NCBI GenBank assembly: GCA_009914755.4
Contig: CP068257.2
Location: 33,056,001-33,120,000 of the forward strand
Direction: 5' to 3'
Source of the DNA: the human T2T-CHM13v2.0 reference genome, Homo sapiens
DNA length: 64,000 bases
The stretch's first letter is position 1. Each line of letters starts with the position of its first letter. The notes under the pieces were generated by a model. It saw only the letters and a program-made list of their open reading frames with translations, was not told where the DNA came from and did not search any database. Below are positions 48,200-48,855 of the stretch, piece by piece. Made by a program: the position numbers and the translations under genes.

Positions 48200-48571
48200 T
48201 GCCGGGTGCAGTGGCTCACACCCATAATACCAACACTTTGGGATGCTGAGGTAGGAGGATTGCTTGAACTCAAGAGCTTGAGGCCAGCTTGGACCACATA
48301 GCGAGACCTTGTCTTTACTAAAATTAAAACAAATTAGCCGGGCAGGATGGCGCCTGCCTATAATCCCAGCACTTTGAGAGGCTGAGGTGGGAGGATTGCT
48401 TGAACTCAAGAGTTTGAGATCAGCCTGGGCAACATAGCAAGGCCTTGTCTCTACTAAAACTAAAAAAAATTAGCTGGGTGGAGTGGTGCCTGTCTGTAGT
48501 CCCAGCTATTCAGGAGGTTGAGGCAGGAGGATTGTTGGAGCCTGGGAGATGGAGTCCACAGTGAGCTGTGT
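48200..48571 (+). mobile_element. Alu left monomer (FLAM-like, 48200-48320) followed by an Alu lacking its last ~40 nt and poly-A
   Basis: gccgggtgcagtggctcacacccataataccaacactttgggatgctgaggtaggaggattgcttgaactcaagagcttgaggccagcttggaccacatagcgagaccttgtctttactaaaattaaaac, then aaattagccgggcaggatggcgcctgcctataatcccagcactttgagaggctgagg...ggagcctgggagatggagtccacagtgagctgtg. Confidence 0.85.
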
Positions 48572-48855
48572 AGATGGACTCTTGCTCTGTTTCCCAGGCT
48601 GGAGTGCAATGATGCGATCTCAGCTCACTGCAACCTCTGCCTCCCAAGTTCAAGTGATTCTCCTGCCTCAGCCTCCCAAGTAGCTGGGATTATAGGCACT
48701 CACCACCACACTGGCTGATTTTGTATTTTTAGTAGAGACGGGGTTTCTCATTGTTGGCCTGGCTGATCTGGAACTCCTAACCTGAGGTGATCCCCCACCC
48801 CTGCCTCAGCCTCCCAAAGTGCTAGGATTACAGGCATGAGCCATCACACCCGGCC
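48572..48855 (-). mobile_element. Alu SINE, minus orientation, lacking poly-T, fused tail-to-tail with the preceding plus Alu (inverted pair, no spacer)
   Basis: agatggactcttgctctgtttcccaggctggagtgcaatgatgcgatctcagctcactgcaacctctgcctcccaagttcaagtgattctcctgcctcagcctcccaagtagctgggattataggc...cctcccaaagtgctaggattacaggcatgagccatcacacccggcc. Confidence 0.9.

What the first reader, a model, noticed from the sequence alone, without database searches (positions are those of the whole stretch)
48200..48855. Spacer-less inverted Alu pair fused tail-to-tail (plus Alu 48200-48571, minus Alu 48572-48855)
A plus-strand Alu runs directly into a minus-strand Alu. It is itself preceded by an extra free left monomer. 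Neither copy has a poly-A/poly-T at the junction, and each lacks roughly its last 30-40 nt (...cacagtgagctgtgt|agatggactcttgctctgtttcccaggctgg...). That is not the footprint of two independent retrotranspositions, which would leave A-tails and TSDs. It looks like an Alu-Alu rearrangement or hairpin-mediated junction. Near-perfect ~270-bp inverted repeats with zero spacer are known hotspots for cruciform extrusion, replication stalling and deletion. If transcribed, they form long dsRNA that is an ADAR editing and MDA5 substrate.
Basis: partly seen in the sequence, partly recalled or inferred. Interest (0 to 1): 0.5.

Follow-up and report, generated by a model that had tools for sequence, protein, structure and literature searches.

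The report
Old deletion fused two inverted Alus
Two ordinary Alu repeats that landed tail-to-tail downstream of the CLIC6 gene were joined by a roughly 220-base deletion in the common ancestor of apes and Old World monkeys; the junction has been inherited unchanged since, so it is a real but ordinary genomic scar, not an unstable hotspot.

Summary
The junction is real. A plus-strand AluJ-like element (extra left monomer 48201-48336, dimer 48337-48570) abuts a minus-strand AluS-like element (48572-48855) with no A/T tail. All 18 other Alu 3' ends in the window have tails.

Two details are wrong. Only the plus copy is truncated, at consensus position ~235 of 282; the minus copy has a complete body. 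The arms are 74.6% identical, not near-perfect, and are offset by 52 nt in register.

Orthologous CLIC6-downstream loci settle the origin:
- Tarsier and lemur have an empty site.
- Owl monkey and capuchin have both Alus with A and T tails, 13- and 16-nt target-site duplications, and a 146-bp unique spacer.
- Macaque, snub-nosed monkey, gibbon, orangutan and the window share the identical junction.

So two classical, independent insertions were later fused by one 216-223-bp deletion in the catarrhine stem. The joint is blunt (0-1 nt microhomology), as in end-joining repair. Hairpin triggering is possible but unsupported: the ancestral arms were about 78% identical with a 169-bp spacer.

The fused pair has persisted for more than 25 My without excess conservation. 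It lies about 5.1 kb past the CLIC6 stop codon. Transcription and RNA editing could not be tested. Interest is low.

The parts
48191..48200 (+). Surviving (5') copy of the target-site duplication of the + strand Alu (AACAAGTTCT)
   Evidence: In Aotus the same motif recurs after the A-tail (AAAAGTTAT...). Tarsier and lemur have a single copy, seen as a 13-nt gap when the Alus are stripped from Aotus.
48201..48336 (+). Extra Alu left monomer, which is a tandem 136-bp duplicate of the next monomer
   Evidence: Aligns to AluJ consensus positions 2-143 at 81%. Rfam Metazoa_SRP sub-threshold hit at 48201-48317. Shares 15 identical departures from consensus with the next monomer, against about 2 expected by chance. 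TRF period 136. Present in Aotus and all catarrhines examined; exactly one monomer is missing in Sapajus.
48337..48570 (+). AluJ-like dimer, truncated at its 3' end (consensus positions 2-234 of 282; no tail)
   Evidence: Best alignment score is to AluJ (281, against 242 for AluSx and 215 for AluY) at 80.7% identity. SRP hits at 48337-48453 and 48473-48671. Aotus and Sapajus orthologues continue through consensus 235-282 and an A11-14 tail.
48571..48571 (.). Deletion junction. The T at 48571 is the last base retained from the + Alu (GTGT|AGA)
   Evidence: New World monkeys read GTG T TCG on the left side and TTG|AGA on the right side. The join has 0-1 nt of microhomology. The same junction is present in Macaca, Rhinopithecus, Nomascus and Pongo.
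48572..48855 (-). AluS-like element with a complete body (consensus 1-281 of 282) and its A-tail removed
   Evidence: Best alignment score is to AluSx (391, against 348 for AluY and 323 for AluJo) at 86.7% identity. SRP hits on the - strand. Aotus and Sapajus orthologues keep a T8-9 run in front of it.
48857..48872 (-). Surviving copy of the target-site duplication of the - strand AluS (ACCTCTGGCATATCTG region)
   Evidence: A second copy lies just left of the T-run in Aotus and Sapajus (CTCTGATATATC). Tarsier and lemur have a single copy, seen as a 16-nt gap.
42892..43053 (+). Context: last coding exon of CLIC6, ending in the stop codon at 43051-43053. The Alu pair lies about 5.1 kb downstream on the same strand
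   Evidence: PDB phmmer hit to CLIC6, tblastn exon map, splice sites, and primate CLIC6 homologues.

Best explanation
Two separate Alu elements inserted by ordinary target-primed reverse transcription, tail-to-tail and about 146 bp apart, downstream of CLIC6. One is an AluJ-type element with a duplicated left monomer on the + strand. The other is an AluS-type element on the - strand. Both inserted after the tarsier lineage split off and before New World and Old World primates separated.

Later, in the catarrhine stem lineage, a single deletion of about 216-223 bp removed five things: the last 47 nt of the AluJ, its A-tail, the unique spacer (including one copy of each target-site duplication), the T-tail of the AluS, and at most 1 nt of the AluS body. 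The ends were joined bluntly, as expected for non-homologous end joining of a double-strand break.

The resulting tail-less, abutting inverted pair is a neutral scar that apes and Old World monkeys have inherited.

What is shown: the order of events, the extent of the deletion, the junction sequence and its phylogenetic distribution. What is inferred: the repair pathway (from the blunt junction) and neutrality (from the absence of excess conservation).
For: - Element boundaries and subfamily assignments.
- The missing tail is unique among the 19 Alu 3' ends in the window.
- The window aligns colinearly across the junction to Macaca, Pongo and Nomascus. Its alignment to Aotus and Sapajus breaks exactly at 48571/48578, with about 220 extra bp in the monkeys.
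- The multiple alignment shows the AluJ 3' end, the A-tail, the spacer and the T-tail in both New World monkeys, and nothing there in the four catarrhines.
- Rhinopithecus carries the same junction.
- The deleted segment is 216 bp in Aotus and 223 bp in Sapajus. The spacer is homologous to the tarsier and lemur empty site, and 13-nt and 16-nt duplications mark the target-site duplications.
- The window is 96.3% identical to Pongo at substitution level over 35 kb, so these are orthologous loci from related species.
- Divergence inside the Alu pair is at least as high as in the flanks.
- Partial Alu deletions are the commonest kind of old-AluS structural polymorphism in humans (PMC5402677).
Against: - Only two platyrrhines, five catarrhines, one tarsier and one lemur were sampled.
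Independent support comes from the Rfam SRP hits and from the window's own 20 other Alus.
- The repair pathway is inferred from a single junction, and base changes since the event could hide 1-2 nt of microhomology.
- Nothing here says what caused the break.
Confidence: 0.9

Rival explanations
1. Same history, but the break that caused the deletion was triggered by a hairpin or cruciform formed between the two inverted Alus. The structure was cut near its tip and rejoined with asymmetric loss (palindrome 'centre-break' type revision; the named mechanism is from my own knowledge, Cunningham et al. 2003, not read here).
For: The deletion removes the whole spacer and centre of symmetry plus one strand of the terminal stem. 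In the predicted ssDNA fold of the Aotus (ancestral-like) arrangement, the deleted AluJ 3' end pairs with the retained AluS 3' region (27 pairs) and the spacer forms the loop. Inverted Alu pairs at short spacing are depleted in the human genome, and this has been attributed to hairpin-induced breaks (PMC3215922).
Against: At the time of the event the arms were about 78% identical and separated by about 169 bp including the tails. In the yeast assays, widening the spacer from 12 to 100 bp lowers recombination about 300-fold, and 75% homology abolishes instability (GCR rate down about 1087-fold) (PMC10164571). The proposed hairpin exclusion range is 0 to about 100 bp. A blunt junction is not specific to this route. 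The breakpoints do not coincide with loop-stem boundaries.
Confidence: 0.18
2. The - strand AluS entered a double-strand break inside the AluJ by a non-classical (endonuclease-independent) or internally primed insertion. That would explain the missing tail, the missing target-site duplications and the loss of target DNA.
For: Within the window alone the hallmarks fit: no poly-A, no flanking duplication around either element or the composite, and loss of adjacent sequence. These are the defining features listed in PMC5402677.
Against: In Aotus and Sapajus the same AluS has a T8-9 tail and a 16-nt target-site duplication, and it sits 146 bp away from an intact AluJ 3' end with its own tail. The AluS therefore inserted classically, and the tail was lost later.
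Confidence: 0.01
3. The junction is an assembly artefact, or the product of a local inversion or Alu-Alu homologous recombination.
For: None beyond the unusual appearance of the junction.
Against: The same junction appears in five independently assembled genomes. No orphan Alu 3' fragment or reciprocal junction exists anywhere in the 64-kb window. The joint links non-homologous positions (AluJ 235 to AluS 281/282) of oppositely oriented elements, which homologous recombination cannot produce.
Confidence: 0.01

Closest known systems
Post-insertion partial Alu deletions (end-joining deletions with breakpoints inside old Alu elements)
   Same: The breakpoint lies inside an Alu body, and tails and flanking unique DNA are lost. 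There is no homology at the joint. The event is fixed or polymorphic without known function. In PMC5402677 most polymorphic AluS loci are such partial deletions.
   Different: Here both breakpoints fall in Alus of opposite orientation, so the product looks like a fused inverted pair. The event is ancient (catarrhine stem) and fixed.
Closely spaced inverted Alu pairs as fragile quasi-palindromes (Lobachev 2000 yeast model; 'hairpin Alu pair exclusion', Cook 2011)
   Same: Tail-to-tail inverted Alus with no intervening DNA. The predicted ssDNA hairpin is strong: -163.5 kcal/mol, z = -11.4.
   Different: Arm identity is 74.6% (about 78% in the approximate ancestral sequence), the level at which instability vanishes in yeast. 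The arms are offset by 52 nt in register. The junction has been retained unchanged in four of the five catarrhine lineages examined. The fifth, Rhinopithecus, keeps the junction but lost most of the + arm through a separate microhomology-flanked deletion of about 980 bp.
Inverted-repeat Alu (IRAlu) dsRNA substrates of ADAR and MDA5
   Same: If both arms lie on one transcript they would fold into a long imperfect duplex: RNA MFE -359 kcal/mol, z = -19.6.
   Different: The pair lies about 5.1 kb past the CLIC6 stop codon and about 1 kb past a candidate AATAAA at 47221. It is therefore probably outside the mature mRNA. Neither expression nor editing could be examined.
Non-classical (endonuclease-independent) Alu insertions
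   Same: In the window there is no poly-A tail, no target-site duplication, and adjacent sequence has been lost.
   Different: Orthologues show a classical insertion with tail and target-site duplication that predates the loss.

Membership tests
Alu SINE (dimeric, 7SL-derived) | Left and right monomers derived from 7SL RNA and joined by an A-rich linker | tested here: met
   Alignments to AluJ and AluS consensus at 81-87% identity. Rfam Metazoa_SRP hits on each monomer, 26-47 bits, E from 1e-10 to 1e-4, all below the gathering score as expected for Alus. Linker ACTAAAACTAAAAAAAATTA at 48453-48472.
Alu SINE (classical TPRT insertion) | 3' poly-A tail and flanking target-site duplications | tested here: met
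   Absent at the junction in the window, but present for both elements in the Aotus and Sapajus orthologues: A11-14 and T8-9 tails, with 13- and 16-nt duplications relative to the tarsier and lemur empty site.
Non-classical Alu insertion (endonuclease-independent) | The element was inserted without a tail or target-site duplication, with target-site deletion at the moment of insertion | tested here: not met
   The ancestral state retains the tail and the duplication, so the loss is secondary.
Fragile inverted-repeat / quasi-palindrome | High arm identity (about 86% or more in the yeast Alu assays) | tested here: not met
   74.6% in the window, 76-79% in other catarrhines, 77.7% in the approximate ancestor. 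Thresholds are from PMC10164571.
Fragile inverted-repeat / quasi-palindrome | Very short spacer between the homologous arms (about 20 bp or less) | tested here: inconclusive
   The physical spacer is 0-1 nt, but the arms in register are 52 nt apart because only one arm is truncated. Local pairing partly fills the gap in predicted folds.
Fragile inverted-repeat / quasi-palindrome | Observed instability (recurrent rearrangement at the site) | tested here: not met
   The junction is identical in the window, Pongo, Nomascus, Macaca and Rhinopithecus. The only later event is one deletion of about 980 bp in Rhinopithecus with GAGG microhomology. Human population variation was not testable.
IRAlu dsRNA (ADAR/MDA5 substrate) | Both arms co-transcribed and A-to-I edited | not testable with these tools
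   Only the fold potential is shown. No expression or editing data are available here.
Alu recombination-mediated deletion (ARMD) | Homologous crossover between same-orientation Alus that leaves one chimeric Alu | tested here: not met
   The Alus are in opposite orientation, and the joint links non-homologous consensus positions 235 and 281/282 with 0-1 nt of microhomology.

The most novel reading that the evidence does not exclude
The deletion was provoked by secondary structure between two Alus that were already about 22% diverged and about 170 bp apart. If so, hairpin-driven loss of inverted Alu pairs would operate in the primate germline well outside the range seen in yeast dsDNA assays. 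The product, a spacer-less pair about 75% identical that has been stable for more than 25 My, would serve as a natural calibration point for inverted-repeat stability thresholds in primates.
Probability: 0.15. Interest if true: 0.3.

Novelty: already known. Interest (0 to 1): 0.12.

Why it matters
The main value is as a worked example. A junction that looks exotic in a single genome (two inverted Alus with no tails, no target-site duplications and no spacer) resolves into two ordinary insertions plus one small end-joining deletion once outgroup genomes are consulted.

It also shows that an abutting inverted Alu pair of about 75% identity can persist for tens of millions of years. This agrees with the divergence thresholds measured in yeast.

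It has no evident consequence for CLIC6. The pair lies well past the stop codon and shows no excess conservation.

Tried and rejected
- Exact-pattern scans for the unique right flank and for the junction found nothing in JGI metagenome contigs, GTDB genome contigs or IMG/VR. Those collections hold no copy of this locus.
- Rfam at gathering threshold found nothing in the window.
- A local inversion with a reciprocal junction was rejected: there is no orphan Alu 3' fragment anywhere in the window.
- A target-site duplication flanking the whole composite was rejected: the best flank-to-flank match scores below the null mean.
- The first homologue search used only the CLIC6 C-terminal domain and returned short isoforms. 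The marmoset short isoform and the chimpanzee protein were not on record for locus retrieval.
Their loci could then be fetched.
- Lobachev 2000 itself is not held in the library, so its numbers are cited through PMC10164571 and PMC3215922.
- A search for the 'centre-break' mechanism found it only in reference lists.
- Selective constraint on the pair was rejected: its divergence is at least that of the flanks.

Full report
**Observation.** At the reported site the sequence reads ...CACAGTGAGCTGTG-T-AGATGGACTCTTGCTCTG..., exactly as quoted.

Local alignment to the consensus sequences gives three units:
- An extra left monomer at 48201-48336 (AluJ consensus 2-143, 81% identity).
- A + strand AluJ-like dimer at 48337-48570 that covers only consensus 2-234 of 282.
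- A - strand AluS-like element at 48572-48855 that covers consensus 1-281 of 282.

Rfam, which does not depend on my memory of the consensus, gives sub-threshold Metazoa_SRP hits for each monomer in the stated orientation.

The tail-less junction is unusual. All 18 other Alu 3' ends in the window are followed by A-rich tails.

- Only the + copy is truncated, by 47-48 nt plus its tail. The - copy lacks just its tail.
- The arms are 74.6% identical (71% counting gaps). The longest exact shared run is 16 nt, and the arms are 52 nt apart in register. They are neither near-perfect nor functionally spacer-less.

The predicted folds are nevertheless strong: RNA -359 kcal/mol (z = -19.6) and DNA -163.5 kcal/mol (z = -11.4). 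This is expected for any adjacent inverted Alu pair.

**Context.** One ORF matched CLIC6 in the PDB. A tblastn exon map and splice-site inspection place CLIC6 exons 2-6 on the + strand, with the stop codon at 43051-43053. The Alu pair lies about 5.1 kb downstream. An AATAAA at 47221 is a candidate poly(A) signal about 1 kb upstream of the pair; it was not checked against annotation. The window contains no CpG island.

**Route to orthologues.** Pattern scans of the metagenome, prokaryote-genome and viral collections found no copy of the locus. I therefore searched for full-length primate CLIC6 proteins. I then retrieved their genomic loci with 10-kb flanks: Macaca (L001), Aotus (L002), Pongo (L003), Sapajus (L004), Carlito (L005), Nomascus (L006), Rhinopithecus (L007) and Eulemur (L008). 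The window is 96.3% identical to Pongo and 95.9% to Nomascus at substitution level. That fits a hominid, probably human.

**What the orthologues show.**
- The window aligns colinearly across the junction to Macaca, Pongo and Nomascus. The junction motif CAGTGAGCTG(T/C)GTAGA(T/C)GGAC is present in all three and in Rhinopithecus.
- In Aotus and Sapajus the alignment breaks exactly at 48571/48578.
- The extra DNA in those two monkeys runs, in order: the rest of the AluJ (consensus 235-282), an A11-14 tail, 146 bp of unique sequence, then a T8-9 run that leads into the AluS.
- The segment missing from catarrhines is 216 bp in Aotus and 223 bp in Sapajus.
- Tarsier and lemur have neither Alu. Their sequence between the flanks aligns to the New World monkey spacer.
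- When the Alus are stripped from Aotus, two short duplications of 13 nt and 16 nt remain relative to tarsier and lemur. These are the target-site duplications of the AluJ composite and of the AluS.

Both elements were therefore classical, independent insertions. A single deletion in the catarrhine stem then created the fusion.

**Dating.** From established primate phylogeny (my own knowledge), the deletion falls after the platyrrhine split at about 40-45 Mya and before the ape/Old World monkey split at about 25-30 Mya.

**Mechanism of the deletion.** On the left, New World monkeys read GTG T TCG. On the right they read TTG|AGA. Catarrhines read GTGT|AGA, so the join has 0-1 nt of microhomology. 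This is the signature of non-homologous end joining, not of homologous or microhomology-mediated repair.

Whether a hairpin provoked the break cannot be decided.
- For the hairpin idea: the deletion spans the centre of symmetry. In a predicted ssDNA fold of the Aotus arrangement, the deleted AluJ 3' end pairs with the retained AluS 3' region.
- Against it: an approximate reconstruction of the catarrhine ancestor gives arms 77.7% identical. Aotus has 75.9% identity with a 169-bp spacer including the tails.
- In yeast, widening the spacer from 12 to 100 bp reduces Alu inverted-repeat recombination about 300-fold. Lowering homology to 75% removes instability (PMC10164571).
- The proposed hairpin 'Alu pair exclusion' range is 0 to about 100 bp (PMC3215922).

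I put hairpin triggering at roughly 0.15-0.2.

**Rivals excluded.**
- Non-classical or internally primed insertion fits the window alone (features as listed in PMC5402677). It is refuted by the tails and target-site duplications in platyrrhines.
- Assembly artefact is refuted by five independent assemblies.
- Local inversion is refuted by the absence of an orphan Alu 3' fragment or reciprocal junction in the window.
- Alu-Alu homologous recombination cannot join non-homologous positions of oppositely oriented copies.

**Consequences.** The fused pair has been inherited unchanged in four of the five catarrhine lineages sampled. Divergence inside it is at least as high as in the flanks, so there is no sign of constraint. 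Arm complementarity has simply drifted, ranging from 74.6% to 79% across species. The 'hotspot' reading is therefore not supported. The dsRNA, ADAR and MDA5 suggestion remains an untested possibility that depends on read-through transcription beyond CLIC6.

**Verdict.** This is a real junction and a correct suspicion of secondary rearrangement, but an ordinary outcome: an ancient, fixed, apparently neutral end-joining deletion between two ordinary Alus. It is an already known kind of event and of low interest.

Noticed in passing
window 48201-48472; L002 61822-62090; L004 ~63500: The 'free left monomer' is not an independent FLAM insertion. It shares 15 identical departures from the AluJ consensus with the adjacent left monomer (10 of them non-CpG; about 2 expected by chance). 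One target-site duplication pair flanks the whole three-monomer element in Aotus. It is therefore a 136-bp tandem duplication or a trimeric source copy. Sapajus lacks exactly one monomer, an in-register 136-bp loss.
   Followed up: partly
L007 (Rhinopithecus) ~61388; equals window 47538-48515: A lineage-specific deletion of about 980 bp in the snub-nosed monkey removes the upstream flank, the extra monomer and most of the + Alu. The breakpoints share GAGG microhomology. The fused junction itself is retained. Whether other colobines share this deletion was not checked.
   Followed up: partly
window 33864-43053: CLIC6 exons 2-6 lie on the + strand: ex2 33864-33973, ex3 34540-34665, ex4 35296-35401, ex5 35953-36137, ex6 42892-43053, with stop TGA at 43051-43053. 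Exon 1 and its CpG island are not in the window.
   Followed up: yes
window 47221: AATAAA about 4.2 kb after the CLIC6 stop and about 1 kb upstream of the Alu pair. It is a candidate CLIC6 poly(A) signal, which would place the pair outside the mature mRNA. It was not verified against annotation.
   Followed up: no
window 26793-27029 and 27646-27891: Two young-looking AluY copies (96% and 93% identical to consensus, with long pure A-tails) are both 5'-truncated at nearly the same consensus position (45 and 43). They lie 855 bp apart on the same strand and share no flanking sequence.
   Followed up: partly
window 48531-48658 (both strands), 48667-48717, 48591-48650: Sub-threshold Rfam hits to miRNA families that I believe (from my own knowledge) are Alu-derived: mir-1304 across the junction at 27 bits against a gathering score of 90, plus mir-1268 and mir-3135. 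These most likely reflect the Alu sequence itself and are not evidence of a miRNA gene.
   Followed up: no
window 45199-45309; 43403-43467: An (AAATG)n microsatellite of about 22 copies has grown from the tail of the Alu at 44927-45197. A (TC)16(CA)15 compound repeat lies about 350 bp after the CLIC6 stop codon.
   Followed up: no
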